Source of the DNA: a virus
Taxonomy: Duplodnaviria > Caudoviricetes
IMG/VR virus record: IMGVR_UViG_3300020045_006727
Span: 1 to 42,165 of that record
DNA: 42,165 bases
Direction: 5' to 3' (one strand)
Under the pieces are notes generated by a model, which did not search any database, was not told the origin of the DNA, and saw nothing but the letters and a program-made list of their open reading frames with translations. This document shows positions 11,373 through 39,526 of this stretch, in pieces. Position 1 is the stretch's first letter, and each line of letters starts with the position of its first letter. The translations under genes and the position numbers were made by a program.

Positions 11373-11547
11373 GTCACGAGAAAAGAAAGCACTGTGTCTC
11401 GCCTGTGGAAAACGTGCCATTGAGGTCGAGGGCCTCTGTGGGTCATGTTATCGTTGGGAGGATGAAGAAAAAAATCAAAATACCAACCAAAAAGTATATT
11501 CAGAAGATAGAAATCAACGACAACGAAGTAGAAATCAACTTCTCTAA
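11365..11547 (+). CDS. Small CxxC...CxxC protein
   Basis: CLACG...GLCGSC; overlaps the GT6 start. Confidence 0.45.
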   Translation: MSESREKKALCLACGKRAIEVEGLCGSCYRWEDEEKNQNTNQKVYSEDRNQRQRSRNQLL

Positions 11548-12601
11548 TAAGAAAAAGGTCGCTTTACTCTTTATTTGCGTCAATGAGCGCTACTGGCCGT
11601 ATTTAAAACAAGTCGTCGAAGACTGCCAAAAACACTTCCTTCCGCATCATCTTGTAGACTATTTCCTCTGGACCGACATACCTAAAGAGGACACAGACAC
11701 CTACAAAGCAAGACTCGATCAGCTACTTCCTAACGAGATTTATCAACGGATAATCGCAGACGGTAGCCGCCCAAACGACCAATGGTGGCCCCGCGAGGTA
11801 ATACAAGAAACAGTTAACTTTGTGCGGGGTATCAAAGACGTCACCATTACTGAGACTGAGCCTATCGAGTGGCCTGCCCCGACACTCATGCGCTACCACC
11901 TGTTTCTCCAACAAGAAGAAAAACTCAAAGACTATGACTATGTGTTTTACCTTGATGCCGACATGCGTGTTGTAGATAAGATCAGTGACGAAATACTTGG
12001 TGAAGGACTCACCGCAGCAGAGCATCCAATGTACGCGCTCCGTCCGCAGTACATCCCACCATACGAGCCGAATAAAGACTCAACGGCATACATTAAGCGT
12101 CTTGGCACGGTGGTAGACGACGGTGGGAAGCCACGGTTTAAACCACACTACCTCGCTGGAGGTTTCCAGGGCGGTGTTGCAAAGAACTTTATAGCCGCCA
12201 TGAAGCGAATGAAAGCAAACATAGACATCGACTTTAATAACAACTACACGGCGATATGGAACGACGAAAGCCATTGGAATAAGTACCTCTGGGACTATCG
12301 TGGCCCGCTCACGGTACTCTCCCCTTCATACGTGTACCCGGACTCTCTCATTAACGAGTACTATATACCCGTGTGGGGCAAGGACTACCCGAAAAAGATA
12401 ATTACCCTCACGAAACCATTCTCGCTCTCGAAGCAAGCCGGGAGCGAACTCAATCAATTCCTTGGTGTAAAAGAAGAAAAGAAATTCCAATGCCCTCACT
12501 GCCTCGACATGTTCGATACACCAGGGATGCGAGTAAACCGGGTCGTGCAGTGTCCAGGGAAAGGACAGGCCCACCAGCTCGACATGACTAAAACCTCATG
12601 A
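11462..12601 (+). CDS. GT6 family glycosyltransferase (ABO-like alpha-1,3-Gal/GalNAc transferase) with C-terminal Cys/His motif
   Basis: WPAPTLMRY, YLDADM (DXD), YLAGGFQGG, AIWNDESHWNKYL, LSPSY. Confidence 0.9.
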   Translation: MKKKIKIPTKKYIQKIEINDNEVEINFSNKKKVALLFICVNERYWPYLKQVVEDCQKHFLPHHLVDYFLWTDIPKEDTDTYKARLDQLLPNEIYQRIIADGSRPNDQWWPREVIQETVNFVRGIKDVTITETEPIEWPAPTLMRYHLFLQQEEKLKDYDYVFYLDADMRVVDKISDEILGEGLTAAEHPMYALRPQYIPPYEPNKDSTAYIKRLGTVVDDGGKPRFKPHYLAGGFQGGVAKNFIAAMKRMKANIDIDFNNNYTAIWNDESHWNKYLWDYRGPLTVLSPSYVYPDSLINEYYIPVWGKDYPKKIITLTKPFSLSKQAGSELNQFLGVKEEKKFQCPHCLDMFDTPGMRVNRVVQCPGKGQAHQLDMTKTS

Positions 12602-13278
12602 TGGTTTCGATCATCATCCCCGTTTGGAATCAAGCACAATACCTTGCAGAAGCTATAGAGTCGGCACTCGCGCAGACGCACCCCGACAAAGAAATAATAG
12701 TCATTGACGACGGGAGCCCCGATAAAGCTGCTGAGATAGCGGCGCAATACCCTGTCCGGCTCGTTAGGCAAAGAAACAAAGGGCTTGCTTCGGCCCGGAA
12801 CACAGGAATCATGTGGGCCTATGGGGAGTACGTTTTGCCACTTGATTCTGACGACATACTTAAACCGGAATGCGTAGAGCGCATAGTTTCCGTTGCACGT
12901 GAAACGAACGCCGACATAATCGCTCCGTCTATCGAGTGTTTTGGAATTGCAGAGCAAGCAACTATTCTTATGCCGGCCCCGACTATAGAAGACTTTAAAG
13001 GCGGAAACAGAATAGCGTATTGTTCAGCAGTGAAACGTAGTGTACTTCTCGAGGTTGGTGGGTATTCACCTCGGTATGACGCATTAGGCGGCTGGGAAGA
13101 TCTGGCATTGTGGTACGACCTCCTTACACGAGGCAGAAGGATAGTCACCATTCCCGAGCCGTTGGTACGCTACCGTGTGAAAGAGAAGTCTATGTGGCGT
13201 GACGCGGAAAAAAATAAAGAAGCACTCTGGGAACAAATTATTAAAGACTTCCCCCATGTTGCCCACCACAAAAGTTAG
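12598..13278 (+). CDS. GT2 family glycosyltransferase
   Basis: VSIIIP..N, IDDGSPD, GLASARNTG, LDSDD, WEDLALW. Confidence 0.92.
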   Translation: MMVSIIIPVWNQAQYLAEAIESALAQTHPDKEIIVIDDGSPDKAAEIAAQYPVRLVRQRNKGLASARNTGIMWAYGEYVLPLDSDDILKPECVERIVSVARETNADIIAPSIECFGIAEQATILMPAPTIEDFKGGNRIAYCSAVKRSVLLEVGGYSPRYDALGGWEDLALWYDLLTRGRRIVTIPEPLVRYRVKEKSMWRDAEKNKEALWEQIIKDFPHVAHHKS

Positions 13279-13861
13279 CCTCGCCGTTCCCTACCACGAC
13301 ACACCACATACCGCGTTTTACCTTGCACGGCTTTTTAAGTCACTCGACGAACAGACATTCAAAGACTACGAAATTGTACTTACAAAAGAAGGAGCGTTCG
13401 CCAGAAACCACAACGCGGCCCTAATTAAATGCCGTGGGGAGATTGTGCAATTTATGGGGATTGACGACTATTTCGCTCATCCCCAGGCATTACAAAATAT
13501 CGTTGATGGGTTTACACAGGATACGGCGTGGCAGATTACCGCATGTCTTCACAATCAAGATGGTGTAGTAGGCTGGCCACACTATCCCTACTGGACTGAC
13601 GATATCTACACCGGGAATAACCGATTAGGGGGCGTTTCGACCCTTTCTGTGCTCCGTGAAAAAGCTATAACCTTCGAAGAACCACTCTCATGGCTCGTCG
13701 ATGTGGATATCTATTACAGACTCTTTTTAAAGTATGGTATACCTAAGTTAGGAACTACTCTTGACATAGTTGTAAACACCACCATGCACCGCACCTCGAA
13801 CACTCTCTCAGACGACATTAAACGGGGAGAGGTCGAGTATCTAACAAAAAAATATGGGTAA
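13256..13861 (+). CDS. GT2-like glycosyltransferase
   Basis: VSLAVPY, SLDEQTFKDYEIV, ARNHNAAL, DDYF, LVDVDIYYRL. Confidence 0.8.
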   Translation: MLPTTKVSLAVPYHDTPHTAFYLARLFKSLDEQTFKDYEIVLTKEGAFARNHNAALIKCRGEIVQFMGIDDYFAHPQALQNIVDGFTQDTAWQITACLHNQDGVVGWPHYPYWTDDIYTGNNRLGGVSTLSVLREKAITFEEPLSWLVDVDIYYRLFLKYGIPKLGTTLDIVVNTTMHRTSNTLSDDIKRGEVEYLTKKYG

Positions 13862-14876
13862 ACGGGTCCTTCTCACTGGTGTGTCAGGAAGTATTGGGTG
13901 TCATTTCTTCGCGCACTTCATGACCAACACAGACTGGCATGTAGTGGGTGTAGACTCGTTCCGGCATAAGGGATGGTATGACCGCCTCCAGGCAATGTTC
14001 GACCATCACCCTGAATGGCGCGAACGGTTTACACTCATTACGCACGACCTCACGGTTCCTTTCTCGCCAATTACAAAAAGAAAGATAGGTGATATTGACT
14101 ACATCATTGCGATGGCGTCGCTTTCTGACGTTGAGGCGAGTATCCAAGATCCGGTTCCTTTTATTCAAAACAACATTAACTTAACACTCAATCTACTTGA
14201 ATATGCTCGAGAAATTAACCCTGAAGTCTTTATCCAAATTTCTACCGACGAAGTTTATGGCGCGGTTGAAACAAAATATGATGATCTCTGCAAGGAATGG
14301 GCGCCAATTGTGCCTTCGAATCCTTACGCAGCTTCTAAAGCTTGTCAGGAGGCCATAGCTATCTCGTACTGGCGAACGTATGGTATTCCACTCGTCATCA
14401 CCAATACGATGAATAACTGGTCTGAGATGCAGAGTGCCTCGAAATTTCCAGTGATTATTCAAAAAGCGTTGATGACAGGGAAAAAGGTCACTATACATGG
14501 CGAGTCGAACGGTCAAATAGGTTCGCGTTCGTACATTCATTCACGTAATTTTGCTGACGCCATATTGTTTATTCTCAAGAATACGACGCCATATAAACAC
14601 CAGCCACTAAAAGCTGATAAGCCAGATCGTTATAATATAGCTGGCGATGTACAGCTAGATAATCTTGAGCTAGCACAACTTATAGCAGACTTAATGGGAA
14701 AGAAACTTGACTATGAAATAAAAGAGTCACACAGTCAACGCCCTGGCCACGACCCACATTACGGTCTCGATATGACCAAATTAAAGAAATTAGGCTGGAC
14801 TGCCCCGGTAGATTTTAAGACTTCCTTAAAGAATGTTATCGAGTGGCAGACCGCTCACCCGGAGTGGATAGAGTAA
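13854..14876 (+). CDS. NDP-glucose 4,6-dehydratase (RmlB-like extended SDR)
   Basis: LLTGVSGSIG, ISTDEVYG, PSNPYAASK, RPGHD..Y. Confidence 0.9.
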   Translation: MGKRVLLTGVSGSIGCHFFAHFMTNTDWHVVGVDSFRHKGWYDRLQAMFDHHPEWRERFTLITHDLTVPFSPITKRKIGDIDYIIAMASLSDVEASIQDPVPFIQNNINLTLNLLEYAREINPEVFIQISTDEVYGAVETKYDDLCKEWAPIVPSNPYAASKACQEAIAISYWRTYGIPLVITNTMNNWSEMQSASKFPVIIQKALMTGKKVTIHGESNGQIGSRSYIHSRNFADAILFILKNTTPYKHQPLKADKPDRYNIAGDVQLDNLELAQLIADLMGKKLDYEIKESHSQRPGHDPHYGLDMTKLKKLGWTAPVDFKTSLKNVIEWQTAHPEWIE

Positions 14877-14877
14877 T

Positions 14878-15477
14878 ATGCTTTCAACGCGAAAAAAAAT
14901 AGGTGGGCTCGGTAACCTCATGTTCAAGCAGGCATTTCTTCTGGGGAAGTTCTTCGATGGTGAGATACCTGACGTGTATCTCCAGGGAGAGAAGTATTGG
15001 GCAAAGCACCGCGAGACCATTAAAAAAGAATTCTCTGACGGCATTGGCAGTACCGACGTGGTGGCACTCCATATACGGCGTGGTGACTATCTCCAAGCGC
15101 ACAACTTCCATGCGAACCTCTGGGAGACTGACTTCTATCAGAAAGCTGTCGCTCTATTTCCTAACGAAAAGTTTCTCGTCTTTTGCAAGGACAACCAAAA
15201 CCCCGAGCAGGATAAGGCAGATCGAGTGTGGTGTCGCGAACATTTGCCGAAACTCCTTGGTGATAGGTTTGAAATGGCCCCCTACGAAGATGAAGAGTGG
15301 GAGGATATGAACCTCATGGCGTCGTGTACGAAAGGAATCATCATGGCGAACAGCTCATTTTCGTGGTGGGCGGCCTATCTCAACCCACACGAGGGAGCGA
15401 AGGTGGTGACTCCTAAGCAGTGGTTCGTCGATGGCGTTCAGCGAACGGAATTACTCGACACATGGATACAACTTTAA
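14878..15477 (+). CDS. GT11 alpha-1,2-fucosyl/deoxyhexosyl-transferase
   Basis: GGLGNLMF, LHIRRGDY, MANSSFSWWAAYL. Confidence 0.9.
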   Translation: MLSTRKKIGGLGNLMFKQAFLLGKFFDGEIPDVYLQGEKYWAKHRETIKKEFSDGIGSTDVVALHIRRGDYLQAHNFHANLWETDFYQKAVALFPNEKFLVFCKDNQNPEQDKADRVWCREHLPKLLGDRFEMAPYEDEEWEDMNLMASCTKGIIMANSSFSWWAAYLNPHEGAKVVTPKQWFVDGVQRTELLDTWIQL

Positions 15478-16439
15478 AAAGAATCTTAGTCACCGGTAGC
15501 GCTGGTCTTGTCGGTTCAGCATGCTTTGATCACTTTACGAAAGCAGGATGGGAAGTGTTAGGCATAGACAACGGCATGCGGCAGTACTTCTTTAACCTCC
15601 CCGAGTACAAAGTCGAAAACAACATTGATATTCGTGACGAGGAAAAGATAAACGAGATTTTCCAGCAATTTAAACCGGATGCAATTATCCATGCGGCGGC
15701 TCAACCAAGCCACGACTGGGCGAAGCATGAACCACTGACTGACTTTGACGTAAACGCCCGAGCCACGCTCGTTCTGCTCGAAGCAACACGGAAGTACACG
15801 CCCGACGCGGTGTTTGTTCACGTGTCTACCGACAAAGTGTACGGCGAGAATATGAGTCGAAGTGACCTTAAAGAAAAGAAAACTCACTACTACCATGAGA
15901 CCCCATTCGATGAAACGGTAGGGCTTGATTATGCGGGGCACCGGTCACTATTTGGGTGTTCAAAGGCTGCTGCGGATATATATGCACAGGAATACGCTGA
16001 CTGGGGACTCAAGGTAGGGATATTCCGCCCTGGGTGTATCACCGGAAAGAATCATAAGGGAGCGGAGTATCACGGGTTCCTCGCGTACATGGCGCAATGT
16101 ATTAAAGAAGGAAAAGTATATCGGATATTCGGCAACGGCAAGAACGTACGCGACCAGATTCACGCCTCTGACCTTGCCTCAGCATTCGCCGCGTTCATTG
16201 AGAAACCGAAACGCGGTGCGGTATACAACATTGGCGGCGGCCCTGGGCGGAGCCTGTCAGTCCTGGAGGCCGGTGAGATGCTTTCTGAAACCATAGGAAA
16301 ACCATTTCTCCACGAGTTCCACCCAGCGCGAATTGGAGATAGACTCTGGGACGTTCACGATGTATCAAAGTTCCGGGCCGATTACCCAGAGTGGGAGTAC
16401 CAATACTCGCTCGCAGATATTATTAAAGACCTTACATGA
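15462..16439 (+). CDS. CDP-paratose 2-epimerase (tyvelose epimerase)-like SDR
   Basis: VTGSAGLVG, HAAAQPSHDWA, STDKVYG, FGCSKAAAD.YAQEY, FRPGCITG, VRDQIH. Confidence 0.8.
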   Translation: MDTTLKRILVTGSAGLVGSACFDHFTKAGWEVLGIDNGMRQYFFNLPEYKVENNIDIRDEEKINEIFQQFKPDAIIHAAAQPSHDWAKHEPLTDFDVNARATLVLLEATRKYTPDAVFVHVSTDKVYGENMSRSDLKEKKTHYYHETPFDETVGLDYAGHRSLFGCSKAAADIYAQEYADWGLKVGIFRPGCITGKNHKGAEYHGFLAYMAQCIKEGKVYRIFGNGKNVRDQIHASDLASAFAAFIEKPKRGAVYNIGGGPGRSLSVLEAGEMLSETIGKPFLHEFHPARIGDRLWDVHDVSKFRADYPEWEYQYSLADIIKDLT

Positions 16440-17590
16440 AATATAAAGTATCTTACGGTGGCGCACTCATAGGAAAACAAGAAAAACAGGCCATCATGCG
16501 TATCGTCAATAGCAACTGGTGGCCCCTTTCCAAGGAAGGTGCTTTAATGGAAAAAGAAGCGTCTAAATACCTTGGAGTTAAATATGGGATATTGGCAAAT
16601 AGTGGCAGTTCTGCTGGTTTACTTGCTCTTACTGCTCTTGAACTACCGCGAGGGTCAGAAGTACTCATCCCCGCAGTTACGTTCCCTACTATTTTTAACA
16701 TCATCCTTCAGTGTGGCCTTGTTCCTGTGGTGGTTGATTCTAAGATAGGCACCTACAATCTCGACCCGAAAGAACTAGAACAAGCAATTACTAAAAAAAC
16801 GAAGGCTATTATTGCAGTCCATGCCGTGGGAAACCCCTGCGACATGGTGGCAATTATGAAGATAGCTAAGAAACATAAACTCTATGTTATTGAAGATAAC
16901 TGTGATGGATGGGGCGGTAATATCGGTAGGAAAAAGGTCGGTTCATTCGGCCACATCTCATTCACCTCATTTCATGCTGCACACATTGTTGCCATGGGTC
17001 AAGGTGGTGGAGTATTTACGAACGATAGAGAACTCGCCCGTCGTGTGCGAATGTACCGAGACTGGGGACGACAAAGCGACATCCCCCGTCGCACGAACGG
17101 TAAAAAGTGGCCGACGCTCCCTGAAGACTACGACGCGCGGTTCATCTACGAAAAAATCGGTTACAATCTCTCCCCGCTCGAACTCCAAGCAGCGATGGGG
17201 CGTGTCCAGCTCAAAAAGACTGAAAAAATAAAGCGACTACGCAAACGCAACTTTCACTATCTCTACAAACACCTCTCTAAATTTGACGACCTCATCATGC
17301 CAGAATGGATTGAAGGTGCTGACCCGTCGTGGTTTTCATTTCCACTCTCTACTGTTGGTGAGCGCGGGCCACTCGTCGCACATCTTGAAAAGAACGGTAT
17401 CGAGACTCGCTCCATGTTTGCCGGTAACATACTGGAGCATCCGGCCTATAAGGGCATGAAGGTAAAGAGCTTTGTCGAAGAAGCGGACTGGATACTCAGA
17501 CACTCGTTTTGGGTGTCGTGTCACCCGCGCTATTCGACCAAGGACCTGGATTACATGCTGAACGTGTTTGACGACTACTACAATGCTTAA
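16436..17590 (+). CDS. DegT/DnrJ-fold, His-type NDP-4-keto-6-deoxyhexose 3-dehydrase (RfbH/E1- or ColD-like)
   Basis: NSGSSA, EDNCD, SFHAAH (His at the Lys position), RDWGR, GYNL.P.ELQAAMG, FAGNI..HPAY. Confidence 0.85.
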   Translation: MKYKVSYGGALIGKQEKQAIMRIVNSNWWPLSKEGALMEKEASKYLGVKYGILANSGSSAGLLALTALELPRGSEVLIPAVTFPTIFNIILQCGLVPVVVDSKIGTYNLDPKELEQAITKKTKAIIAVHAVGNPCDMVAIMKIAKKHKLYVIEDNCDGWGGNIGRKKVGSFGHISFTSFHAAHIVAMGQGGGVFTNDRELARRVRMYRDWGRQSDIPRRTNGKKWPTLPEDYDARFIYEKIGYNLSPLELQAAMGRVQLKKTEKIKRLRKRNFHYLYKHLSKFDDLIMPEWIEGADPSWFSFPLSTVGERGPLVAHLEKNGIETRSMFAGNILEHPAYKGMKVKSFVEEADWILRHSFWVSCHPRYSTKDLDYMLNVFDDYYNA

Positions 17591-18164
17591 ACTCCCCGAA
17601 GTTACGCTCGTGTGCATCACTAACAAAGACTTTGAGAGTCATAAAAAAGCGTTAGATAAATCGTCAGAGGGTATCGAGTGGGGCGCACGCAAGATAATTT
17701 GGGACGAGGGAATAACAGGAATTTCAAACTGGAACGAGAAGGTGATACAAGACTTATATAAATATGTTGATACTACCCACATGCTCTTATACCATCAAGA
17801 TGGGTACGTGATTAACCCTGAACTTTGGGACGACTCATGGTTAGAACTGGATTACATTGGCAGTCCTTGGCCGCTGCCTACAGACAGTTATTCGTATAGG
17901 ACTCCTTCTGGAAAATTAATTCGTGTAGGGAACAGCGTCTCACTAAGAAGTAAGAAACTTATGGAACTTGTATCAACAAGACCAATCGAACTCCACTACG
18001 GTAATAATAATGAAGATGGACAGATATGTGTGTGGGAAAGAGATTGGCTAGAATCGCAGGGATGTAAGTTTGCAACTTTTGAACAAGCACTGAAGTTCGG
18101 TAAAGAAGCTCCGTTGCCAGAAAATATAGGTTTGAAAACCTTTGTATTCCATGAGTTTAATTGA
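17583..18164 (+). CDS. DUF5672-like putative glycosyltransferase
   Basis: HMLLYHQDGYVINP..W...LDYIGSPW, VGN..SLRSK, NED. Confidence 0.75.
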   Translation: MLKLPEVTLVCITNKDFESHKKALDKSSEGIEWGARKIIWDEGITGISNWNEKVIQDLYKYVDTTHMLLYHQDGYVINPELWDDSWLELDYIGSPWPLPTDSYSYRTPSGKLIRVGNSVSLRSKKLMELVSTRPIELHYGNNNEDGQICVWERDWLESQGCKFATFEQALKFGKEAPLPENIGLKTFVFHEFN

Positions 18165-18177
18165 TACAATAGGTTCA

Positions 18178-18627
18178 ATGGAAATTAGTTTAACGCAGGG
18201 TAAGGTAACTTTGATTGACGATGAAGATGTAGGACGTGTTTCTAAGCATAAATGGTGCTATGACAGTAGTAACGGTTATCCGGTCAGTAGAATTGGTGGA
18301 AATCGAGTACGTCTACATAGATTTATACTCAACAATCCTACTTCAAAGTATGTTGACCATATGAATAGAGACAAACTTGATAACAGAAAAGAAAATTTAA
18401 GACTGTGTAATGCTTCTCAAAATGTGAGAAATAGAGGGGTAAATAAAAATAATACCTCTGGTTATAAAGGTGTCATTAAATTTAAAAGTAAGTGGAGGGC
18501 GCAATTCTCACTCAACTATAAATTCTATGATTTAGGTCTGTATAATACAGCACAAGAAGCTGCGGTTGCCTACAATAAAAAAGTAGAAGAAGTTCACGGT
18601 AGTTTTGCCTACTTCAACAAACTATGA
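18178..18627 (+). CDS. HNH-AP2 homing endonuclease
   Basis: LTQGK...IDDED, VDHMNRDKLDNRKENLR, SGYKGV, AAVAYN...FAYFN. Confidence 0.92.
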   Translation: MEISLTQGKVTLIDDEDVGRVSKHKWCYDSSNGYPVSRIGGNRVRLHRFILNNPTSKYVDHMNRDKLDNRKENLRLCNASQNVRNRGVNKNNTSGYKGVIKFKSKWRAQFSLNYKFYDLGLYNTAQEAAVAYNKKVEEVHGSFAYFNKL

Positions 18628-19442
18628 TAGCGGGCATTTTCCACGAGGGTTCAGGAATTGGCGATCAGCTCTTTCGGTATATCACTGTACGAACTCTCGC
18701 GGAAGAAAAGGGCTTTGAGTGGGCTATGGTAAACAAGGAAAACTTTAAAGGTGAATCTTTTTTGAAGACAGACCTTTCATCAAAGATTTTTCTATGGGAA
18801 GACAACGTGAGGGTGATGGAAAAACCAACGTTATTTAATGAAAAAGACGTTAGAGACGCACAAGGTAATGACATCCGCTCCTACGACCCTGAGATTAACT
18901 TTGTCGGAGACAACACTGTCGTCGACGGTTCATTTGAAGATGATAAGTACTGGGGACACAACTTAGAGAATATAAACAAGTGGCTTGCGGTTGAGCCATT
19001 GGACATACCCGATGACATGTGTGTCGTAGGGTTTAGGGGTGAGGAATATACGACGCAATCAGACCTGTATTTACCGTATACATACTGGTTAAAAGCATAT
19101 CGATCTATCAAAGGTAAAGGGGCGCGGCAATTTGAAGTTCATACAGACGATCCAGAAAGTGCTCGTGTAATGTTGTTCCCTAGGTTTATGAGTGAATTCA
19201 AAATTATAGAAAATGAACCTATCTCACACTCAAAGCACACCAACATGGGATTTAACTGGAGATCGGCCCGATATGCAAAGTACGCTATTATACCCAATAG
19301 CGCATTCTTTATTCTGCCTCGCCTTCTCAAACACTTCGAAGACCCGACAGCGGTCACTATCGCGCCTCGGTACTGGGCTCGATACAACACCGGTGTATGG
19401 GCTCGACCAGCGTGTTATTACAAACAATTTACCTATATATGA
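18624..19442 (+). CDS. Divergent GT11-like glycosyltransferase
   Basis: GSGIGDQLF, GFRG.EY, IIPNSAF, IAPRYW. Confidence 0.7.
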   Translation: MIAGIFHEGSGIGDQLFRYITVRTLAEEKGFEWAMVNKENFKGESFLKTDLSSKIFLWEDNVRVMEKPTLFNEKDVRDAQGNDIRSYDPEINFVGDNTVVDGSFEDDKYWGHNLENINKWLAVEPLDIPDDMCVVGFRGEEYTTQSDLYLPYTYWLKAYRSIKGKGARQFEVHTDDPESARVMLFPRFMSEFKIIENEPISHSKHTNMGFNWRSARYAKYAIIPNSAFFILPRLLKHFEDPTAVTIAPRYWARYNTGVWARPACYYKQFTYI

Positions 19443-19708
19443 AACACTTGCATTACCAGTTTGTGGCTTATGTAGAAAAAGAAGGCAGAGAATTTATTGG
19501 AGGAACTCTAATAGATGTACTTGATTGTGCTAATGAAGAGGAGGCACTTGAAAAGGTTAAAACAGTTCTTCAGCGCCCTCTGTACCATTTGATGAAAGTT
19601 TGGGAGTGTTCGACCTGCTCTACTCAACAAGAACAATTAGCGAATAGTCGTTACCTTACTACACTTTTAGGTAAGCATTTGAAAAACGATGAAAGCAACT
19701 CTGATTAA
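19439..19708 (+). CDS. Hypothetical protein
   Basis: ATGA-coupled inside the glycan operon. Confidence 0.55.
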   Translation: MKHLHYQFVAYVEKEGREFIGGTLIDVLDCANEEEALEKVKTVLQRPLYHLMKVWECSTCSTQQEQLANSRYLTTLLGKHLKNDESNSD

Positions 19709-20321
19709 TTACAATCACGACCCACAAGACTGGTGGCTTGAGTATGGTTTTAAACCAGAAGACGTAACACTCTATGACCGCTCTGACGACGGTGAGTTTC
19801 GTATCTTTGCGGCGCGAACGTACCGAACCAAAAACTGGGGTGATGTAGATTTTGACAAACTCTCGTACCTTATTGAGAATTACGACAATCTCCCTGAAGT
19901 GTTTTTGTGGGCCAAGTCAAACATATTTAAGTCGGTAGAATCTGAGTACCTAAAGGAGAAACTTGTTGAAGGGCAGTTCGCACCACTCCTCAAATTCGAC
20001 CACAAAACATACTCAGACCAATTCGGTGTAGTGAATCGATACGCAGGGCCTATATACGAAGAACGGGCAGATTCGTGGTTCTTTAACAATCCGGCACTGT
20101 CTCGCAAATTCTTAAGTTGGCAACAGTGGGCAACGTACCTAGGACTTCCATTAACCGAGTTTATTCCATTTGCTCCGGGCGGTAATTATATCCTCACTCG
20201 AGAGCGTGTTCACCGCTACAGCCGTGATTTCTATGAGAAAATGAGAGATACCCTCCCCTACGCCATGCACCCAGCGGAGGCACATGCCTGTGAGAGGAGC
20301 TACTATTTACTATGGCGGTAA
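19689..20321 (+). CDS. DUF3431-like putative glycosyltransferase
   Basis: YLIENYDNLPE..., FAPGGNYILTRERV.....FY, H..ER...LW. Confidence 0.7.
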   Translation: MKATLINYNHDPQDWWLEYGFKPEDVTLYDRSDDGEFRIFAARTYRTKNWGDVDFDKLSYLIENYDNLPEVFLWAKSNIFKSVESEYLKEKLVEGQFAPLLKFDHKTYSDQFGVVNRYAGPIYEERADSWFFNNPALSRKFLSWQQWATYLGLPLTEFIPFAPGGNYILTRERVHRYSRDFYEKMRDTLPYAMHPAEAHACERSYYLLWR

Positions 20322-21103
20322 CCTCAATCTTTACGTTCAACGGAGAGAATAAGATGCTCCAACTCCACTTGGCCATACTCTATCCCTACGTTGATAAGTT
20401 CATTATAGTCGAGGCTAACAAAACATTTACCGGGAATGACAAGCCAATGTATTTCTCAAGGGATGGGCGGTTCTTTAAAGACTGGTTCAAGAAAATAGAG
20501 TACTACCCTATGACTGATTGGGATGACCCGGTGATATGGGAAATGGCTATTAAAAGCCCCAACACTGTTGGTGCACCACACTGGAAGCGTGAGTTCTATA
20601 TCAAGGAAAGCATCATGAAAGCTATCGAACAGCAGAAACCAGACGACGAGGACTTGTTCTTTATCGGTGATGTTGACGAAATTATTGACCCAACCGTTGA
20701 ATTCATCAGTGATACCCCTGTCAAAGCTAAACTGCGCGTCTATTCGTACTACCTCAACAACCGCTCAACAGAGCCATTTCACGGTACCCTCATCGCACAG
20801 TACAAAGATATCAAAGGAAAGTGCCTTAACCACTTGCGGAGTGATAAGAAACTTTACTCAAAAGGACCATACCTAGGGTGGCATTTCACTAACATGGGAG
20901 GGCAAGATGAAATCCGTCGCAAACTCAATGACAGCTATACGGAAGAAAGCTATAATACATTTGAGGTACAGCAACAACTCCCCGAACGTATGAAGGACAA
21001 TGTAGACTACCTGGGCCGTGACTTCACCTTCTCACTTGATGAGAGTGAGTGGCCGCAGTATCTCAAAGATAACCGCGAACAATTTGAACGCCTATGCAAG
21101 TGA
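20312..21103 (+). CDS. GT17 (MGAT3/GnT-III-like beta-1,4-GlcNAc transferase) family protein
   Basis: FNGE..ML..., VDKFIIVEANKTFTG..KP, GDVDEI, GWHFT.MGG. Confidence 0.85.
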   Translation: MAVTSIFTFNGENKMLQLHLAILYPYVDKFIIVEANKTFTGNDKPMYFSRDGRFFKDWFKKIEYYPMTDWDDPVIWEMAIKSPNTVGAPHWKREFYIKESIMKAIEQQKPDDEDLFFIGDVDEIIDPTVEFISDTPVKAKLRVYSYYLNNRSTEPFHGTLIAQYKDIKGKCLNHLRSDKKLYSKGPYLGWHFTNMGGQDEIRRKLNDSYTEESYNTFEVQQQLPERMKDNVDYLGRDFTFSLDESEWPQYLKDNREQFERLCK

Positions 21104-25809: not shown

Positions 25810-26277
25810 ATGAGAAATTACGCAGCAGGAATGCCCGTCGGAGATAACCAAATGCCTATCTCGCAGAATACGCCAGCGCCATACAAGGCGATTGCTACCC
25901 TTACCAAGGACTCAGGAAACAATGTATCGTCTATCCTCGTACTGACCGATAACACGACTGCAATCGAAGTTAGCGCCGCAGGTGCTCCTGCCTATATCAG
26001 ATGGCTTTCGCAGTCTCTGGTTGACTCAAGCGTCGCAGGAACGTCAGTGCTTGCGACGGGGGCAGCAAACTACGACCACATCGTTCCTGCCGCATCAGTG
26101 CGGAGGTTTGTTGTACCTGTCTCTACTGACACAAACAAAACGGTAGGTGCCACTGCTACGTCAGTTGTAGGACAGAATGTAGAGTACGGACTGTTCAAGA
26201 ATGTCGGGCTGATAGGTACCGGCGCCATTACGTCCATTATCAGTGTTACACAGTACGGTAAGTCTAATAGTTACTAA
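25810..26277 (+). CDS. Putative virion (head decoration) protein
   Basis: S/T/V/G-rich, located in the head module. Confidence 0.6.
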   Translation: MRNYAAGMPVGDNQMPISQNTPAPYKAIATLTKDSGNNVSSILVLTDNTTAIEVSAAGAPAYIRWLSQSLVDSSVAGTSVLATGAANYDHIVPAASVRRFVVPVSTDTNKTVGATATSVVGQNVEYGLFKNVGLIGTGAITSIISVTQYGKSNSY

Positions 26278-26529: not shown

Positions 26530-27036
26530 ATGTCAATCAGATTACCTCTCAAAACAATAGGAACATTCACCGCAGCAGCAAACGAAACAGGTGCTGGGTC
26601 AGTATCAGGAGGCATTCCGTACACATTCACCATCCCGCAGGATTCAGACAACATTGTTGTCAAACTCACTGCATCAGTGGTGGGTGCGTACTCGGCGGTG
26701 CTTCAGACCACTGACGATGGTGGTACCACGTGGTACGACGTGTCGCGCACGTCTGTTGTTTCAAACGCAAACAATACACTCGCAACGTGGTGCCTTGGTC
26801 AAGTAAACGGCGGTGGTGTTGCGACAGCGCAGAACAACTTTCCTACCGCTTCACTCTTGAGCGTTGGTATCCGCAGTACGGCAGCGTCAACACTTGCTGC
26901 TAACCAGATATCGGGTCTTCCGATACTCAGCCAGCAAGCACGTGTGTTCATCAGAATCACTGGTGATATCACTGACGCTGCTGCAAACACCTACACCGCA
27001 ACAGTTATGGTGAACAGCCAGTCGGCGACAGCCTAG
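26530..27036 (+). CDS. Putative virion protein (beta-rich, QTTDDGGTTWYDV)
   Basis: Asp-box-like motif; S/T/A-rich. Confidence 0.65.
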   Translation: MSIRLPLKTIGTFTAAANETGAGSVSGGIPYTFTIPQDSDNIVVKLTASVVGAYSAVLQTTDDGGTTWYDVSRTSVVSNANNTLATWCLGQVNGGGVATAQNNFPTASLLSVGIRSTAASTLAANQISGLPILSQQARVFIRITGDITDAAANTYTATVMVNSQSATA

Positions 27037-28328: not shown

Positions 28329-29426
28329 ATGGCAGTTACAGCACGCGGTTCAAGTTGGGGTGGGGCAAGTGCCAACACCTCCGAACTCCTCGTTGCCTAC
28401 ATCACTGAGCGCATTCGCACACTTGAGCCTGAGCTCCAGTATGCACGCCTCGGTACTAGACGCGATGCCCCGAAAGGGTTTGACCGCATCATGTTCCCTC
28501 AAGTCAACCAAGTCCCTGTCAAAATCAACGTGAACATCAACTCGTCAGTGACGAGCTTCGGTTCATATGTTGGTGGCGGCATTGGAGGCTCGGTGGCTGC
28601 CGGTGGTAATGCGTCTGTCGAAGGACAGGCTAACATTGCTCCTGGCGCACCGGTTTCTTCAACAGCCGGTGTTGCCGCAATCGTCGAAGGTACCAACCCT
28701 ACATCAGTGACGTGGGGTGCTACGTCGTACGGTTCCGGTCCGTTCCAATTTGGAATTCTTATTCAGGTGACCGACCTTCTTGTTCGTGACTCAGCAATAG
28801 AAGTTGTTGATTCATGTTCAGAAGAAGTCATGAAGTCCATGGCTCGCCTTGTTGACACCGTCATTCAGACTGTCGTCAACTCAGGTGTCAATGGCGTTAT
28901 TTACGCAGGTGGTAAAACAGCACGCACTGGCCTCGCCGCTGGTGACATCTTGACTCAAACCGAGATGATAAAGGGTGTTCGTAACCTCCGCGCTGCAAAT
29001 GCAGCTGGCGTAAAGCCATTCGATGGCAAGTACTATGTGGGCGTCATCCATCCGAACGTGATGGCAGACCTCATGTCGAACTCGCAGACAGGCGCATGGC
29101 AGGATATGGCTCGTTACTCCTCAGTGGACGATGTCCGCGAAGGGAAGATGGGCGATTTCCGTGGTATTCGCTACTTGGAGTCGGCTTACCAGAACTACTA
29201 CAACTCAACCACAACCGTCTATCCGACAACGTTGGTTGGAGACCAGTCGTTCGGATGGGGCTACTTCCAACAGCCAACACCTATCCTGGTTACTACTCCA
29301 GACAGCAACAACCCGTTGAACCTCTTCACCTCAATTGGTGGAAAAGTTACCTTGGGTGTTACTCGTTTCGAGGACAAGCCGTGGGTGTACCGCATCGTTC
29401 GCGCAGAATCAGCAGCAACGACATAG
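28329..29426 (+). CDS. Major capsid protein (N4-gp56-like HK97 fold)
   Basis: EGTNP, QFG.LIQVTD, YVGVIHP....DL, G.MGDFRGIRYLES, D..NPLN; followed by a hairpin. Confidence 0.88.
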   Translation: MAVTARGSSWGGASANTSELLVAYITERIRTLEPELQYARLGTRRDAPKGFDRIMFPQVNQVPVKINVNINSSVTSFGSYVGGGIGGSVAAGGNASVEGQANIAPGAPVSSTAGVAAIVEGTNPTSVTWGATSYGSGPFQFGILIQVTDLLVRDSAIEVVDSCSEEVMKSMARLVDTVIQTVVNSGVNGVIYAGGKTARTGLAAGDILTQTEMIKGVRNLRAANAAGVKPFDGKYYVGVIHPNVMADLMSNSQTGAWQDMARYSSVDDVREGKMGDFRGIRYLESAYQNYYNSTTTVYPTTLVGDQSFGWGYFQQPTPILVTTPDSNNPLNLFTSIGGKVTLGVTRFEDKPWVYRIVRAESAATT

Positions 29427-30620: not shown

Positions 30621-31274
30621 ATGGCAATCCCTATCACTCTCGGAACAGGTGCAGCGTCAGTCGCAGCAGAAGCAATAGGAGGCTTGCAGTACCAACAAAT
30701 TGAAATGGTGGGTGCTGGTGGCTCGTCCACCCTCTCTATCGCACCGGACGGCGCGGCAAAGGTGTCAGTCGTTGGCACTATCACCGTCACACCATCAGGC
30801 GCAGGATCAGTCATCGCAGTACTTCAGTCGTCGTCTATATTTGCAGTCCCTACCGGAAACCAGTCAGTGTCGGGTACGGTGGGCGCGTCAGTCATTGGCA
30901 ACGTCAACACGACCATCACGTCGATTGCTACCGCGAACGGTGGACTTCCTATCTTTGCTCCACTCTCAGCACGTATTCAGGGGACCGCAGACCTTCGTGT
31001 AGTACTCGGAGCTTCAGTTGCTGCTATCGCCGCACAAGGGGCTGGTGTTAGGGCATACATAGACCACGTTCAGGTGGCTAACTTTGGCTCAGCGTCTGTC
31101 CTCGTGACCATCGCCGACAACACCACCTCTATTCTTGGGTACACTATTGCGCCTGCTGGCGGTGGGTCGAACTTCGACTGCTTCTATCGCCCTGCCGCAA
31201 ACTCTCCCATTACCGCGTCGATAAATGGGACGGCATCGGTTCTGGTGTCTTTACAAGGATTCACCGGTCCATAA
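30621..31274 (+). CDS. Putative virion fibre/decoration protein
   Basis: A/S/G/V/T-rich with many xSV/xSI units. Confidence 0.65.
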   Translation: MAIPITLGTGAASVAAEAIGGLQYQQIEMVGAGGSSTLSIAPDGAAKVSVVGTITVTPSGAGSVIAVLQSSSIFAVPTGNQSVSGTVGASVIGNVNTTITSIATANGGLPIFAPLSARIQGTADLRVVLGASVAAIAAQGAGVRAYIDHVQVANFGSASVLVTIADNTTSILGYTIAPAGGGSNFDCFYRPAANSPITASINGTASVLVSLQGFTGP

Positions 31275-32005: not shown

Positions 32006-33673
32006 ATGGCAAATAAACCACAAACCATTGCCATAACGAACTTCGCTGGACGTCTCACCCGTATTTTGAATGGGGACTTGAACAGTGGATTTGCAAAGTT
32101 TACTAACTCGTTTGGCTACGATCCTTTCTCAAAACCAATGAATCTCACATGGCTTGAAACGGCAAGTGATATCACCGGCCCTATCACGGGGCTTCCACTC
32201 ACGGGGAAAGTCATCCCCTATAACTCATCGGGGCCTAACGTTCACATTCTTGACCAAGGGGGGAGATGGTACCAGATTAGTTCGTCGTCCCTTTCGAATC
32301 CAAATCTGAATAGTGTCATTGCCATACAGTCAGTAGGGGGGAGTAACTACCTCTTTGGAGCGTCTATGGAGTTCTTTGGTTCGGTAGTAGGTCAAGATGC
32401 TGTAGGGAACAGCCTGGGGTTTCTCTATGCGTCAAACGACACAACCGTGAGGCGGGTAAACCCTAATGGTTCTGCAGAAGCGGTGGTTGGGACGGCTGGT
32501 CGGTACGTGGCTAACACGTTCAAACCACTCAAGGTATTTGCGGGGAAACTCATCTTTGGTAACGGCAATACTATCGGGGCAATTGATAGCACTGGGACAG
32601 TAACGTCGAGTGTCATGAGTACCGGCCTCACCCAAACGCCTATCTACAGCGAATTAAACCCCGCCCTCGGTACTCAAGCACGGGTCATGGACCTTGAGGT
32701 ATCGCCGTCGAATGACTACATCATAATGGCAGCCGCGAACATCTTGCAGCAGGAGCGACTCGACCTGTACACGACTGACTTCCAATCGAGCGGTGGGGGG
32801 GCTGACGGTAAACTCTTTCAATGGAACGGGTCGGACGGCACAGTCACGGCAGCAACGTCCCTCCCTTCGTATGCCATCACGGCTCTTGAAACATACTTTG
32901 CAAATACCGCTTTCTTCTCGAGTGACACATTTGGAACAACGTTCAATGATGGAACCGCCAAGCGTGTCTCGCTCCCCAACAACAAAACCCCGTTTGCAAA
33001 TGCTGTTTCGGTCAACGGTAACTTTATGACGTGGGCGTGTGCTGAGTGGGACTCAACCAAACGGTACATGTCGCTCTACTACTTCGGTTCACTAGACGAG
33101 GAAAACCCAACAGGACTTTACCGTGTCCTCCGGTGGGAAACGACCCAAGCAAACGGGTTTGTGTCGCAAGTTCCCCTCAACCTCGTAGTCTCAAACAAGT
33201 ACGTCGGTATTAATAACGCAGGTACCGCCCTCTCGACACGTGGATATGGGAAACACTACATCGGCCTCAGCTCTACAAACTCAAGTACGGTAGAAGAGTA
33301 CCTCCTCTCCTTCCTTGTCACCCCCACCGGCTCAGGAACCCCACAATCAGGGGTCTACGAGACACAGACGCAGATGTTTTCAAAACGCACTGACGTGAAG
33401 CAAATTCGCGTGTACACAGAGCCAACGGTTACCGGCAATGGGTTCCGACTCGACCTCATCGGGAGTGACGGGGCAGTCATGGACAACGGCACATTCACTT
33501 ACTCATTCGTAGCAGGCTCAAATATCAACAGTCTCCAGGGAGCACTTGAACGTATCAACTTCAACCCCACTGTCGAAGCCTCATACGCCGTTGGTGTTCG
33601 AGTCACTAATACAGGGAGCACTAATATGACGATAAAGAAAATAGAACTCGATGTGTCAGAAGAAGGACGATAA
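32006..33673 (+). CDS. Putative tail nozzle / DNA stabilisation protein (P22 gp10 or T7 gp12-like)
   Basis: ~555 aa beta-rich protein in the tail module. Confidence 0.55.
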   Translation: MANKPQTIAITNFAGRLTRILNGDLNSGFAKFTNSFGYDPFSKPMNLTWLETASDITGPITGLPLTGKVIPYNSSGPNVHILDQGGRWYQISSSSLSNPNLNSVIAIQSVGGSNYLFGASMEFFGSVVGQDAVGNSLGFLYASNDTTVRRVNPNGSAEAVVGTAGRYVANTFKPLKVFAGKLIFGNGNTIGAIDSTGTVTSSVMSTGLTQTPIYSELNPALGTQARVMDLEVSPSNDYIIMAAANILQQERLDLYTTDFQSSGGGADGKLFQWNGSDGTVTAATSLPSYAITALETYFANTAFFSSDTFGTTFNDGTAKRVSLPNNKTPFANAVSVNGNFMTWACAEWDSTKRYMSLYYFGSLDEENPTGLYRVLRWETTQANGFVSQVPLNLVVSNKYVGINNAGTALSTRGYGKHYIGLSSTNSSTVEEYLLSFLVTPTGSGTPQSGVYETQTQMFSKRTDVKQIRVYTEPTVTGNGFRLDLIGSDGAVMDNGTFTYSFVAGSNINSLQGALERINFNPTVEASYAVGVRVTNTGSTNMTIKKIELDVSEEGR

Positions 33674-33674
33674 T

Positions 33675-33956
33675 ATGGAACCAGACGATAAAAGAATTGT
33701 ACAGGGAATGATAGACGAGGCGGTGCGAAAAGCAACTGCTTTTCAAACTCGTAAAATAGGTGACACGCCAACTGACGATATACAGCTTGTACCACGCAAG
33801 TACGTGACTATGAATGGCTCTGTCGCTGGAAGACCCATAGCATCAATAGCAACAGTAGGACAGCGTTACTTTGCGAGCGATACTAATATCCCTATGTATT
33901 TTACCGCACAACAGACGTGGGTGAATGGTGTGGGGAGCGTCGTCGCACTTTCATAA
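33675..33956 (+). CDS. Small virion protein
   Basis: RP....VGQRYF.SDTN.P.Y.....WVNG.G pattern. Confidence 0.65.
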   Translation: MEPDDKRIVQGMIDEAVRKATAFQTRKIGDTPTDDIQLVPRKYVTMNGSVAGRPIASIATVGQRYFASDTNIPMYFTAQQTWVNGVGSVVALS

Positions 33957-37277: not shown

Positions 37278-37649
37278 ATGTCTGAACAAAAATTCAAGCA
37301 AGCCAAGTCCTCTCTTGCCTTCTCACAGAGCCTTTTAGACTCTATGCGCCAACAGCAGGCACCTATGGAAGCCACTGAAGGCCAAGAAATGCCCCAAGAA
37401 GCCATGCCAGAGCCTATAGTTGAGGAGGAGGCAGTAGTAGAAGAAAAACCACAAGAAGAGCCTATTTCAGAGGCCACAGAGCCTGTGGAGGAAGAAGAAA
37501 AAGAAGACTTAGGTGCCACTCTGAAGTACTTCATGGATGAAGTACGTGGTATGTTCAAAAAGAAAGAAAACGACGATAAGTCAACTATAGAGAAGACGGT
37601 CAAGTCCTCGTTAAAAGAGATGCTCAATGAAGAAGATAAAGATACTTAA
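37278..37649 (+). CDS. Acidic hypothetical protein
   Basis: E/P-rich ATG ORF. Confidence 0.65.
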   Translation: MSEQKFKQAKSSLAFSQSLLDSMRQQQAPMEATEGQEMPQEAMPEPIVEEEAVVEEKPQEEPISEATEPVEEEEKEDLGATLKYFMDEVRGMFKKKENDDKSTIEKTVKSSLKEMLNEEDKDT

Positions 37650-39063: not shown

Positions 39064-39069
39064 ACTAAT

Positions 39070-39525
39070 ATGGCATATTTTCCTCCAACTGGATCAGTCG
39101 TAGCATTTCAAAATAATCCTAGTGTTTTACAGGTCCTTGCTACGGTTACCAATCCAGTCACGTTCTCTTCAGTCTCTGGTACTGTCGGCGCTTCTGTTAT
39201 TGGTACGGTTCCTGTAACTCAGAGTGGCACAATTATTGTGTCAGTAGTGGGAGCAATGGCCGGTATTTCAAGCGTATATCTCGTCGCAAGCTCAGTCACC
39301 AGTGTAAGTGTCATGTCATTGAATACGAACCGGAAAGGAGGAACGATATTTAATCGCTCGGGAACAACAAACTATATAAAGTTAGGCACTGCGGCAACAA
39401 CGTCAGTGTACACAGTTGCTATGGACGACCAAGACTACTACGAACTTCCTTATGGATGGACTGGGGTGGTTGCTGCTATCAGTGCCTCAACCGCAGGGGT
39501 TTTGACAGTCACCGAATTTACCTAA
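39070..39525 (+). CDS. Putative virion protein
   Basis: S/V/T-rich; NRKG..IFN, YIKLG, YYELPY..TG; shares SVSGTVGASVIG with the 30621 protein. Confidence 0.7.
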   Translation: MAYFPPTGSVVAFQNNPSVLQVLATVTNPVTFSSVSGTVGASVIGTVPVTQSGTIIVSVVGAMAGISSVYLVASSVTSVSVMSLNTNRKGGTIFNRSGTTNYIKLGTAATTSVYTVAMDDQDYYELPYGWTGVVAAISASTAGVLTVTEFT

Positions 39526-39526
39526 T

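What the first reader, a model, noticed from the sequence alone, without database searches (positions are those of the whole stretch)
11462..21103. A 42-kb podophage devotes ~23% of its genome to a soluble glycan-assembly operon: candidate virion-glycosylation system
Seen: eleven tightly coupled sugar genes (GT6, two GT2, two GT11-like, GT17, DUF5672, DUF3431, 4,6-dehydratase, 3-dehydrase, 2-epimerase-like) sit between NinG and terS. None has an evident TM segment, and there is no flippase, Wzy, GtrA/B, hydroxymethylase or TET/JBP. Known: serotype-converting phage systems need membrane components, DNA glycosylation needs a hydroxylated base, and virion glycosylation by phage GTs occurs in some mycobacteriophages and giant viruses. 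Inference: this operon builds a multi-residue branched glycan on a cytoplasmic substrate, most plausibly capsid and tail proteins, with its own rare-sugar supply. That is unusually complete for a small phage.
Basis: partly seen in the sequence, partly recalled or inferred. Interest (0 to 1): 0.92.

Follow-up and report, generated by a model that had tools for sequence, protein, structure and literature searches.

The report
Phage capsid sugar-coat system with sequon
A family of uncultured 40-44 kb phages carries a conserved operon of sugar-building enzymes, and its likely outer virion proteins carry a repeated serine motif that sister phages without the operon's capsid loop lack, so the operon most likely coats the phage particle with a branched sugar chain.

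Summary
In detail: eleven coupled, soluble sugar genes fill 11462-21103 (22.9%) of a complete circular phage genome. Seven transferase-type genes occur in 13 of 13 near-complete genomes examined. No TET/JBP, ThyA or ParB was found in 14 genomes. New evidence points to the acceptor. A serine-specific motif, [GAS]-S-[VI]-hydrophobic, is enriched in several unrelated virion-module proteins but not in scaffold, terminase or non-structural proteins. It sits in a ~50-residue capsid insertion in 95 of 97 MCPs; 14 sister MCPs lack both. A second phage family carries the cassette between its capsid and adaptor genes, where it goes with longer Ser/Thr capsid tails but not this motif. Best reading (0.78): O-glycosylation of virion serines with a branched glycan, probably primed by GT2a. 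No glycan was shown. The rare-sugar pathway is incomplete, and the host is unknown. Virion glycosylation is known in mycobacteriophages; homologous clusters in cyanophages are read as host-surface modifiers. This scan noted other terminase-linked transferase cassettes on other DNA, but none matching this one by sequence.

The parts
11462..12601 (+). GT6 glycosyltransferase, retaining alpha-1,3 type; keeps the DxD motif and the His/Tyr/Trp/Glu positions of BoGT6a
   Evidence: PF03414, NF041524 below cut-off, PDB 4ayj E 3e-21 with alignment; 13 of 13 genomes
12598..13278 (+). GT2a; inferred candidate for the priming protein-O-transferase
   Evidence: PF00535 E 2e-37; 13 of 13 genomes; only cassette gene of seven whose tree splits cleanly by capsid family
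13256..13861 (+). GT2b, short divergent GT-A transferase
   Evidence: PF00535 E 1e-4, below cut-off; conserved family alignment; 13 of 13
13854..14876 (+). NDP-hexose 4,6-dehydratase (best match dTDP-glucose type; nucleotide not settled)
   Evidence: TIGR01181 E 2e-56, below cut-off; 11 of 13 genomes
14878..15477 (+). GT11a, alpha-1,2-deoxyhexosyl (fucosyl-type) transferase
   Evidence: PF01531 E 4e-19; 13 of 13
15462..16439 (+). CDP-tyvelose 2-epimerase-like SDR
   Evidence: best PDB hits 9rl0 and 1orr, E 1e-36 and 8e-34; 8 of 13 genomes
16436..17590 (+). RfbH/E1-like 3-dehydrase with His at the E1 active-site position, lacking the Cys-rich loop
   Evidence: NF011936 E 3e-105; alignment to PDB 3bcx/3bb8; motif survey; 12 of 13 genomes
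17583..18164 (+). DUF5672 protein, probable transferase; missing together with the sugar-synthesis genes in G004
   Evidence: PF18922; 12 of 13; a homologue in cyanophage RN05-S carries a GT-A-type note
18151..18627 (+). HNH endonuclease inserted in the operon (passenger)
   Evidence: PF13392, phrog_99
18624..19442 (+). GT11b, divergent GT11-like transferase
   Evidence: phrog_2644 E 9e-4; family motifs; clusters with GT11a by BLAST; 13 of 13
19439..19708 (+). small unknown ORF inside the operon
   Evidence: no family hit; coupled on both sides
19689..20321 (+). DUF3431 protein with a predicted GT-A / nucleotide-diphospho-sugar transferase-like fold
   Evidence: AF2 pLDDT 95.7; VIA-align best Z 8.6, rmsd 4.4, 167 aligned, top rows nearly all GT-A or nucleotidyltransferases; Foldseek none at E<=0.001; 13 of 13
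20312..21103 (+). GT17-like transferase
   Evidence: PF04724 E 6e-15; found in 14 of 15 records searched, the miss a 60% fragment
28524..28673 (+). Gly/Ser-rich insertion (about residues 66-115) in the major capsid protein, just before the conserved EG; holds Ser88 (28590) and Ser96, candidate acceptors. E-loop position is inferred.
   Evidence: absent from sister MCPs; Ser88 in 96 of 97 in-group MCPs, gap in 14 of 14 outgroup; MCP identity TIGR04387, phrog_1357
25810..26277 (+). probable head decoration protein (role inferred from position), motif-rich family
   Evidence: 235 motifs vs 24.6 expected in 86 homologues; both TCN and AGY codons at the same columns
26530..27036 (+). second probable decoration protein (role inferred), motif-rich only in the in-group
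   Evidence: 171 vs 38.1 in 87 in-group; 1 vs 2.2 in 7 outgroup homologues
30621..31274 (+). fibre/spike-like protein with 7 motif copies (relatives carry up to 26)
32006..33956 (+). nozzle-like protein and following small protein (roles inferred), 2 and 3 motif copies
   Evidence: 90 vs 36.1 in 57 and 57 vs 5.7 in 46 homologues; positions
37627..40614 (+). collagen-bearing fibre and three distal tail-region proteins, 11 motif copies in all

Best explanation
The operon encodes soluble sugar-transferring and sugar-tailoring enzymes that most likely build a short branched O-glycan on serines of the phage's own outer virion proteins, in the host cytoplasm. Shown: gene families, conservation, lack of membrane segments, and a Ser-specific [GAS]-S-[VI]-hydrophobic motif confined mostly to late-module proteins, including a capsid insertion that sister phages lack. 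Inferred steps: (1) GT2a would recognise the motif on newly made capsid, decoration, nozzle and fibre proteins and add the first sugar; (2) GT2b, GT17, DUF3431 and GT6 would extend the chain and the two GT11-like enzymes would add alpha-1,2 deoxysugar branches, a GT11+GT6 pairing that recalls ABO-like epitopes; (3) the dehydratase, 3-dehydrase and 2-epimerase would turn a host NDP-hexose into a 3,6-dideoxyhexose, with host help for activation and reduction, perhaps attached by DUF5672; (4) variable tailoring genes would diversify the coat between phages. The purpose (shielding from proteases, decoys or grazers, particle mobility, or host attachment) is unknown.
For: Core of seven genes in 13 of 13 genomes picked by terL/MCP similarity, with variable methyl-, heptose-, radical-SAM and GT47-like extras. 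SV is the top dipeptide in the window's late proteins, 64 vs 35.2, and 12 vs 18 in other proteins. [GAS]SV[VILAM] 251 vs 38.5 shuffled downstream of portal, 4 vs 13.2 upstream; the Thr version 37 vs 35.4. Enriched in 12 of 13 genomes and in non-homologous families, but not in scaffold (1 vs 9.3), terL (10 vs 11.8) or the ~600-aa ejection-like family (15 vs 17.6). One MCP column holds it in 95 of 97; 14 outgroup MCPs have none. Thr replaces Ser in 2.1% at 11 motif columns vs 11.6% at 124 other Ser columns. Eight short-MCP sister loci: 26 observed vs 25.8 expected. A second family has the cassette between MCP and adaptor, in two separate clades whose 17 MCPs have 16-18-residue Ser/Thr tails vs 11-15 in 19 of 20 without. 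No Tet_JBP, ThyA or ParB in 14 genomes, no integrase in those 14. Precedent: Che8, Corndog, Myrna, seen as described in citing papers.
Against: No glycan, proteomic or expression data. The motif was found after the fact in this window and the pattern tuned on relatives; homologues are not independent, and the in-group is one clade, so motif and cassette share one origin there. G004 keeps all seven core genes yet shows no module-wide enrichment (6 vs 7.1), only MCP sites. The second family lacks the motif (9 vs 14.7 with cassette), and its tail gain in the larger clade is only two residues against sisters that also end in Ser/Thr. Adaptor homologues exceed expectation in the outgroup too (4 vs 1.2), and L162 shows 8 vs 4.4. 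Most outgroup loci are fragments; GT17 absence was tested in only 3, one complete, and three carry a different GT4/GT2 cassette. Surface exposure of the motif is unproven: the MCP model failed (pLDDT 42). Homologous cyanophage clusters are read in print as host-surface modifiers.
Confidence: 0.78

Rival explanations
1. The operon remodels host surface glycans (LPS, pili or S-layer glycans) through the host's own lipid-carrier machinery to block superinfection or grazing; the serine motif has another cause.
For: GT2, GT6, GT11 and RfbH-type genes are typical of O-antigen loci (recalled). DUF5672 and GT17 homologues sit in cyanomyovirus clusters, and papers read such clusters this way (passages). 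Soluble transferases can act on lipid-linked acceptors. In G001 and G012 the cluster is co-oriented with early genes, not late ones.
Against: No TM segment in 180 of 180 cluster ORFs; only 2 small ORFs with three or more TM-like segments in 13 genomes. No integrase in 14 genomes (G013, not among them, has one). The paper passages read give no experiment. It does not explain the capsid insertion and motif or the position between MCP and adaptor in the second family.
Confidence: 0.1
2. The operon glycosylates phage DNA through an unrecognised base-activation route.
For: The window has a C5 cytosine methyltransferase, and phage GTs add mono- to trisaccharides to 5hmC (abstract and section 9 of 10.1101/2023.12.21.572611). 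The cluster often abuts terminase genes.
Against: C5-MTase in 1 of 14 genomes. Tet_JBP, thymidylate synthase and ParB in 0 of 14 (the Tet_JBP search had no true positive control). None among 150 of 165 unannotated ORFs scanned. The paper itself calls GT contigs without 5mYOX/ThyS less likely to act on DNA.
Confidence: 0.05
3. The serine motif is a structural or docking repeat, or a site for another modification, and the operon makes a free or lipid-linked glycan that is not attached to virion proteins.
For: In fibre-like proteins the motif lies in repeats such as SVSGTVGASII, which could be a beta-strand repeat. A second family has the cassette without the motif.
Against: The motif recurs in non-homologous folds and at many different columns (31 in the nozzle-like family), uses both Ser codon classes at one column and excludes Thr. 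No kinase or protease was found as a conserved core gene.
Confidence: 0.07

Closest known systems
Mycobacteriophage virion glycosylation (Che8 gp108-110, Corndog, Myrna; Freeman et al. 2023, not held; seen only through citing passages in PMC12619734, PMC11256854, PMC13445384, PMC12363180)
   Same: Phage-encoded transferases, O-linked glycans on capsid and tail proteins.
   Different: There the glycans sit at the C-termini of capsid and tail tube, made by a few transferases. Here 8 probable transferases plus deoxysugar enzymes, GT6/GT11/GT17/DUF families, and a candidate internal motif on about ten proteins. Homology to Che8 enzymes was not tested.
'LPS / cell-wall modification' clusters of T4-like cyanophages and pelagimyophages (RN05-S, S-H68, S-B05, S-B43, S-SCSM1, S-SCSM2R, P-SSM2)
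   Same: Homologous GT17 (26%) and DUF5672 (32-37%) beside GT11, GT2, a 3-dehydratase and epimerases.
   Different: Those are ~200-kb myoviruses and the clusters are interpreted as host-surface modifiers without experiment in the passages read. Here a 42-kb genome spends 23% on the cluster and shows an acceptor signature in its virion proteins.
3,6-dideoxyhexose pathways (Yersinia/Salmonella RfbG-H-I-S-E; E. coli O55 ColD colitose)
   Same: 4,6-dehydratase, His-type 3-dehydrase, tyvelose-2-epimerase-like SDR.
   Different: No RfbF, E3 or separate 4-reductase found in the window; the dehydrase lacks E1's Cys-rich loop, which would make it ColD-like in mechanism (recalled).
Cytoplasmic bacterial protein O-glycosylation (serine-rich-repeat adhesin Gtf systems, AIDA/TibA heptosylation, GT2 flagellin transferases) - recalled, no call
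   Same: Soluble enzymes adding sugars to many serines of surface proteins before assembly or export.
   Different: Different transferase families, and the acceptors here are phage structural proteins.
Phage DNA sugar hypermodification (5mYOX/ThyS plus GT; 10.1101/2023.12.21.572611, PMC13326640)
   Same: Clustered GT-A enzymes and sugar epimerases in phage genomes.
   Different: No base-hydroxylating partner in 14 genomes.

Membership tests
Phage virion-glycosylation systems (Che8 type) | phage-encoded soluble glycosyltransferases | tested here: met
Phage virion-glycosylation systems (Che8 type) | glycans shown on capsid or tail proteins, dependent on those genes | not testable with these tools
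   no isolate or proteome available
Phage virion-glycosylation systems (Che8 type) | acceptor at the C-terminus of the MCP | tested here: inconclusive
   in-group MCPs end in short variable S/T/A residues without extension; the conserved Ser sites are internal; the second family does show C-terminal tails
Phage virion-glycosylation systems (Che8 type) | homology to Che8 gp110 / Corndog gp38 | not tested
   no comparison run
Serotype-conversion systems (GtrABC, phage Wzy/acetylase) | membrane flippase, bactoprenol transferase and periplasmic GT-C | tested here: not met
   no TM segment in 180 of 180 cluster ORFs; GT2a matches GtrB-like PHROGs only over its N-terminal GT-A half
Serotype-conversion systems (GtrABC, phage Wzy/acetylase) | temperate lifestyle (integrase) | tested here: not met
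   tyrosine integrase in 0 of 14 genomes; one in G013; serine recombinases not searched separately
DNA sugar hypermodification clusters | 5mYOX (TET/JBP) or ThyS-type hydroxymethylase | tested here: not met
   0 of 14 for PF12851 and PF00303; divergent 5mYOX could escape PF12851, whose control did not ring above cut-off
GT6 | GT-A fold sequence with DxD/NxN, acceptor His and catalytic WxDES Glu | tested here: met
   residue roles recalled
E1/ColD sugar 3-dehydrases | His in place of the PLP-binding Lys | tested here: met
   aligns with His of 3bcx and against Lys of the 3bb8 variant; same motif in most relatives, while divergent copies in G009, L035 and others differ
E1 (Fe-S dependent) dehydrase | Cys-rich loop for the 2Fe-2S cluster | tested here: not met
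   loop deleted in the alignment and in relatives
GT-A glycosyltransferase (for DUF3431) | GT-A-like fold | tested here: inconclusive
   confident model; best Z 8.6 with ties among GT-A and nucleotidyltransferases, so transferase versus nucleotidyltransferase is open
Podovirus morphotype | no tape measure or sheath; portal-adaptor-nozzle-ejection gene order | tested here: inconclusive
   SU10-type portal hit, no tail tube, sheath or tape-measure hit; adaptor, nozzle and ejection labels are inferred from size and order

The most novel reading that the evidence does not exclude
These phages run a sequon-directed, multi-protein O-glycosylation pathway: GT2a reads [GAS]-S-[VI]-hydrophobic on some ten virion proteins and the other enzymes build a blood-group-like branched glycan capped with a 3,6-dideoxyhexose, giving a dense, serotype-like variable coat. 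The cassette moves between unrelated phage families, capsids gain acceptor loops or tails with it, and the 'LPS' clusters of cyanomyoviruses may likewise target virions rather than hosts.
Probability: 0.45. Interest if true: 0.9.

Novelty: new variant of a known kind. Interest (0 to 1): 0.78.

Why it matters
Glycosyltransferase clusters in aquatic phages are routinely annotated as host cell-wall modifiers without tests. This family gives a specific, cheap test of the alternative: named serines (MCP Ser88 and Ser96, the motif sites of 25810 and 26530) and a named candidate priming enzyme. If right, glycosylated virions extend well beyond mycobacteriophages, a new cytoplasmic O-glycosylation sequon and enzyme set become available for glycoengineering, and DUF3431 and DUF5672 get a function.

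Tried and rejected
AF2 of the MCP from 22 sequences failed (pLDDT 42), so no fold search was run on it; the PDB sequence search with that profile gave only chance antibody hits. PDB sequence searches with DUF3431, DUF5672, GT11b and GT17 profiles gave nothing significant. Atlas search for ORF 25810 gave only leads under 0.9. Promoter and terminator scans were at chance level. No tRNA. Host not identified: the two close GTDB hits lie in MAGs of unrelated taxa and look mis-binned (my reading), INPHARED has only <31% matches, cluster look-ups gave no accessions. GT6 as the priming enzyme was considered because it is the one core gene missing from the motif-less second family, but it keeps sugar-acceptor residues; not excluded. 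N-glycosylation sequons showed no pattern worth following. No complex prediction was sent. Freeman 2023 was not held. Ten-search literature cap: nine used; none of the listings described this family or motif, but most subscription papers are not searched and no supplements were read.

Full report
Observation. The window is a complete circular phage genome (121-bp terminal overlap; CheckV 100%) with terL, an SU10-type portal and an N4-gp56-family capsid protein. Between NinG and terS lie eleven sugar genes, an HNH and one small ORF, all on the + strand and overlapping or abutting, 22.9% of the genome. Family calls are in the observation check; the GT2b and DUF3431 Pfam scores are below cut-off and GT11b rests on motifs and a weak PHROG hit. 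DUF3431 folds confidently (pLDDT 95.7) and resembles GT-A transferases and nucleotidyltransferases (best Z 8.6; no Foldseek hit at E<=0.001). None of 180 cluster ORFs in 13 genomes has a TM-like segment.

Sugar chemistry. The PLP enzyme aligns best to E1 dehydrase, has His at the position where the 3bb8 variant has Lys, and lacks E1's Cys-rich loop; most relatives share this, a few have divergent copies. One SDR is closest to dTDP-glucose 4,6-dehydratase, the other to CDP-tyvelose 2-epimerase. This points to a 3,6-dideoxyhexose, but no nucleotidyltransferase, E3 or separate 4-reductase was found in the window, so the supply is partial. GT6 aligns to BoGT6a and ABO transferases with the acceptor-site residues largely kept. 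That GT11 and GT6 together make ABO-like branches, and that a GT11 transfers colitose, is recalled and comes from no call.

Conservation. A terL search gave 41 IMG/VR loci at 68-81% identity; all 14 with a full 10 kb upstream carry the cluster in similar order (L019 and L020 are near-identical). GT17 was found in 14 of 15 records, the miss a 60% fragment. In the window plus 12 near-complete genomes, GT6, GT2a, GT2b, GT11a, GT11b, DUF3431 and GT17 occur in 13 of 13. My ORF caller missed three genes, recovered by tblastn (G006 GT2b and DUF5672; G008 GT2a). RfbH and DUF5672 occur in 12 of 13 and are absent together in G004. Extras vary: C- and O-methyltransferases, radical SAM, heptose genes, GT47-like, GroEL (150 of 165 unannotated ORFs scanned). 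In G001 and G012 the cluster follows NinG on the strand opposite the late genes. The best 120 dehydrase homologues lie on contigs of at most 46,050 bp, consistent with a phage-resident clade.

Acceptor evidence. Ser-Val is the most over-represented dipeptide in the window's late proteins (64 vs 35.2, p 8e-6 before correcting for 400 pairs) and not in the others (12 vs 18). In 45 terL-centred sequences, [GAS]SV[VILAM] occurs 251 times downstream of portal vs 38.5 in shuffles, and 4 vs 13.2 upstream; SI is also enriched, TV, SL and SA are not. The final pattern [GAS]S[VI][VILAMFWY] was therefore chosen after seeing these data. It is enriched in the late module of 12 of 13 genomes, G004 being the exception. 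By family (sequences de-duplicated by shared 5-mers): MCP 128 vs 54.2, ORF 25810 235 vs 24.6, ORF 26530 171 vs 38.1, nozzle-like 90 vs 36.1, its small neighbour 57 vs 5.7, adaptor-like 29 vs 14.4, portal 28 vs 16.9; not enriched in scaffold (1 vs 9.3), terL, the ejection-like family or three small ORFs. These protein roles, apart from MCP, portal and terL, are inferred from size and gene order. Both Ser codon classes are used at single columns (22 TCN, 56 AGY) and Thr is rare at motif columns (2.1% vs 11.6%). The MCP has a ~50-residue Gly/Ser insertion missing from its nearest relatives among 50%-cluster representatives; Ser88-Val89 in it is nearly invariant (96 and 97 of 97) in otherwise variable sequence. 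Its place before the conserved EG suggests the outer E-loop (recalled HK97 topology; the model failed).

Controls. Eight sister loci with short MCPs and over 2,000 late-module residues show 26 motifs vs 25.8 expected (summed; L163 dropped as a duplicate of L162), and 14 outgroup MCPs have none. No in-group cassette lay next to their terminase, but most are fragments: GT17 was searched in three records, one complete, with no match, and L164, L174 and L254 carry a different GT4/GT2/GT4 set. A DUF3431 search found a second phage family with the cassette, without GT6, between MCP and adaptor behind a near-constant GT4 gene. On a quick tree of 51 MCPs (shorter than 250 aa dropped; careful search unfinished), 17 cassette-bearing rows fall in two clades and have 16-18-residue Ser/Thr tails, vs 11-15 in 19 of 20 without; 12 were undetermined, 2 partial, and two distant rows were measured by a fallback rule. 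Against my reading, this family lacks the motif (9 vs 14.7). Of seven cassette genes, only GT2a splits cleanly by capsid family (27 vs 11, support 1.0); the others need 3-10 label changes (FastTree). That fits a protein-recognising first enzyme, though the two GT2a groups may simply not be orthologues.

Rivals. DNA: no Tet_JBP, ThyA or ParB in 14 genomes and a C5-methylase in 1 of 14; the Tet_JBP control was weak. Host surface: no membrane parts, no integrase in 14. Homologues of GT17 and DUF5672 occur in T4-like cyanophages and a 642-kb phage, and print reads such clusters as host-surface modification (passages of PMC12801897, PMC7029224, PMC7824862, PMC9602691), with no experiment in those passages. 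A purely structural motif remains possible for the fibre repeats.

Host. Unknown. Gene starts show no Shine-Dalgarno signal (10% vs 10% control in 39 window genes; 9% vs 14% in 361 genes of relatives). Some distant MCP relatives show Trp where Gly is expected, as a TGA=Gly code would give. Both hint at Patescibacteria, which is inference only.

Literature seen. Freeman 2023 was not held; known from passages in PMC12619734, PMC11256854, PMC13445384, PMC12363180. Pyle preprint: abstract and section 9. PMC13326640: abstract. PMC12494034: passages, not relevant. Searches for DUF3431 and DUF5672 listed 3 and 1 papers, none on phages by title. Nine searches listed no description of this family or motif; subscription papers and supplements were not seen. 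Earlier scan notes describe other terminase-linked cassettes; look-ups by this GT17, MCP and genome were empty.

Verdict. Real, conserved and most likely a virion O-glycosylation system (0.78). It is a new variant of a known kind: larger, with different enzyme families and a candidate internal sequon across many proteins. Interest 0.78.

Noticed in passing
L079:17310-18848 and family f35/f34 in G005, G007, G008, G011 and other loci: Many relatives carry a GroEL (Cpn60) gene, often with a small upstream ORF of GroES size, between the cassette and terS.
   Followed up: no
L322-L385, gene after MCP: A second phage family has a near-constant GT4-like gene plus a coiled-coil ORF right after its MCP, with or without the larger cassette; a possible basal glycosylation module.
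   Followed up: partly
L164:870-3278, L174:123-2594, L254:2331-5183: Sister phages with short MCPs carry a different three-gene GT4/GT2-like/GT4 cassette beside the terminase.
   Followed up: partly
window 2145-3128 and 4133-4693: A C5-cytosine and an adenine-type DNA methyltransferase; the C5 enzyme is in 1 of 14 genomes.
   Followed up: yes
window 4988-5383, 6659-7120, 9203-9712, 18151-18627, 22859-23326: At least five HNH endonuclease genes in a 42-kb genome.
   Followed up: no
window 39-209, 417-698, 41176-42015: Lysis-like block across the origin: small hydrophobic ORF, SLT lysozyme and a protein whose relatives hit peptidase M23.
   Followed up: partly
P0132, P0139, P0145, P0146: Distant MCP relatives show Trp at conserved Gly positions, as expected if TGA codes Gly in their hosts.
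   Followed up: no
L077:15007-17222 (G002): Amidoligase plus glutamine-amidotransferase pair on the opposite strand between cassette and terminase.
   Followed up: no
window 11462-12601, last 45 residues: GT6 has a Cys-x2-Cys...Cys...His C-terminal extension in some relatives only, zinc-ribbon-like.
   Followed up: no
G015:C1:9184-9855: The GT2a match in G015 has one internal stop: broken gene or sequencing error.
   Followed up: no
L313-L317; LR756502.1 447799-450929: Larger viral contigs and a 642-kb phage hold expanded versions of the same gene set; their virion proteins were not examined.
   Followed up: no
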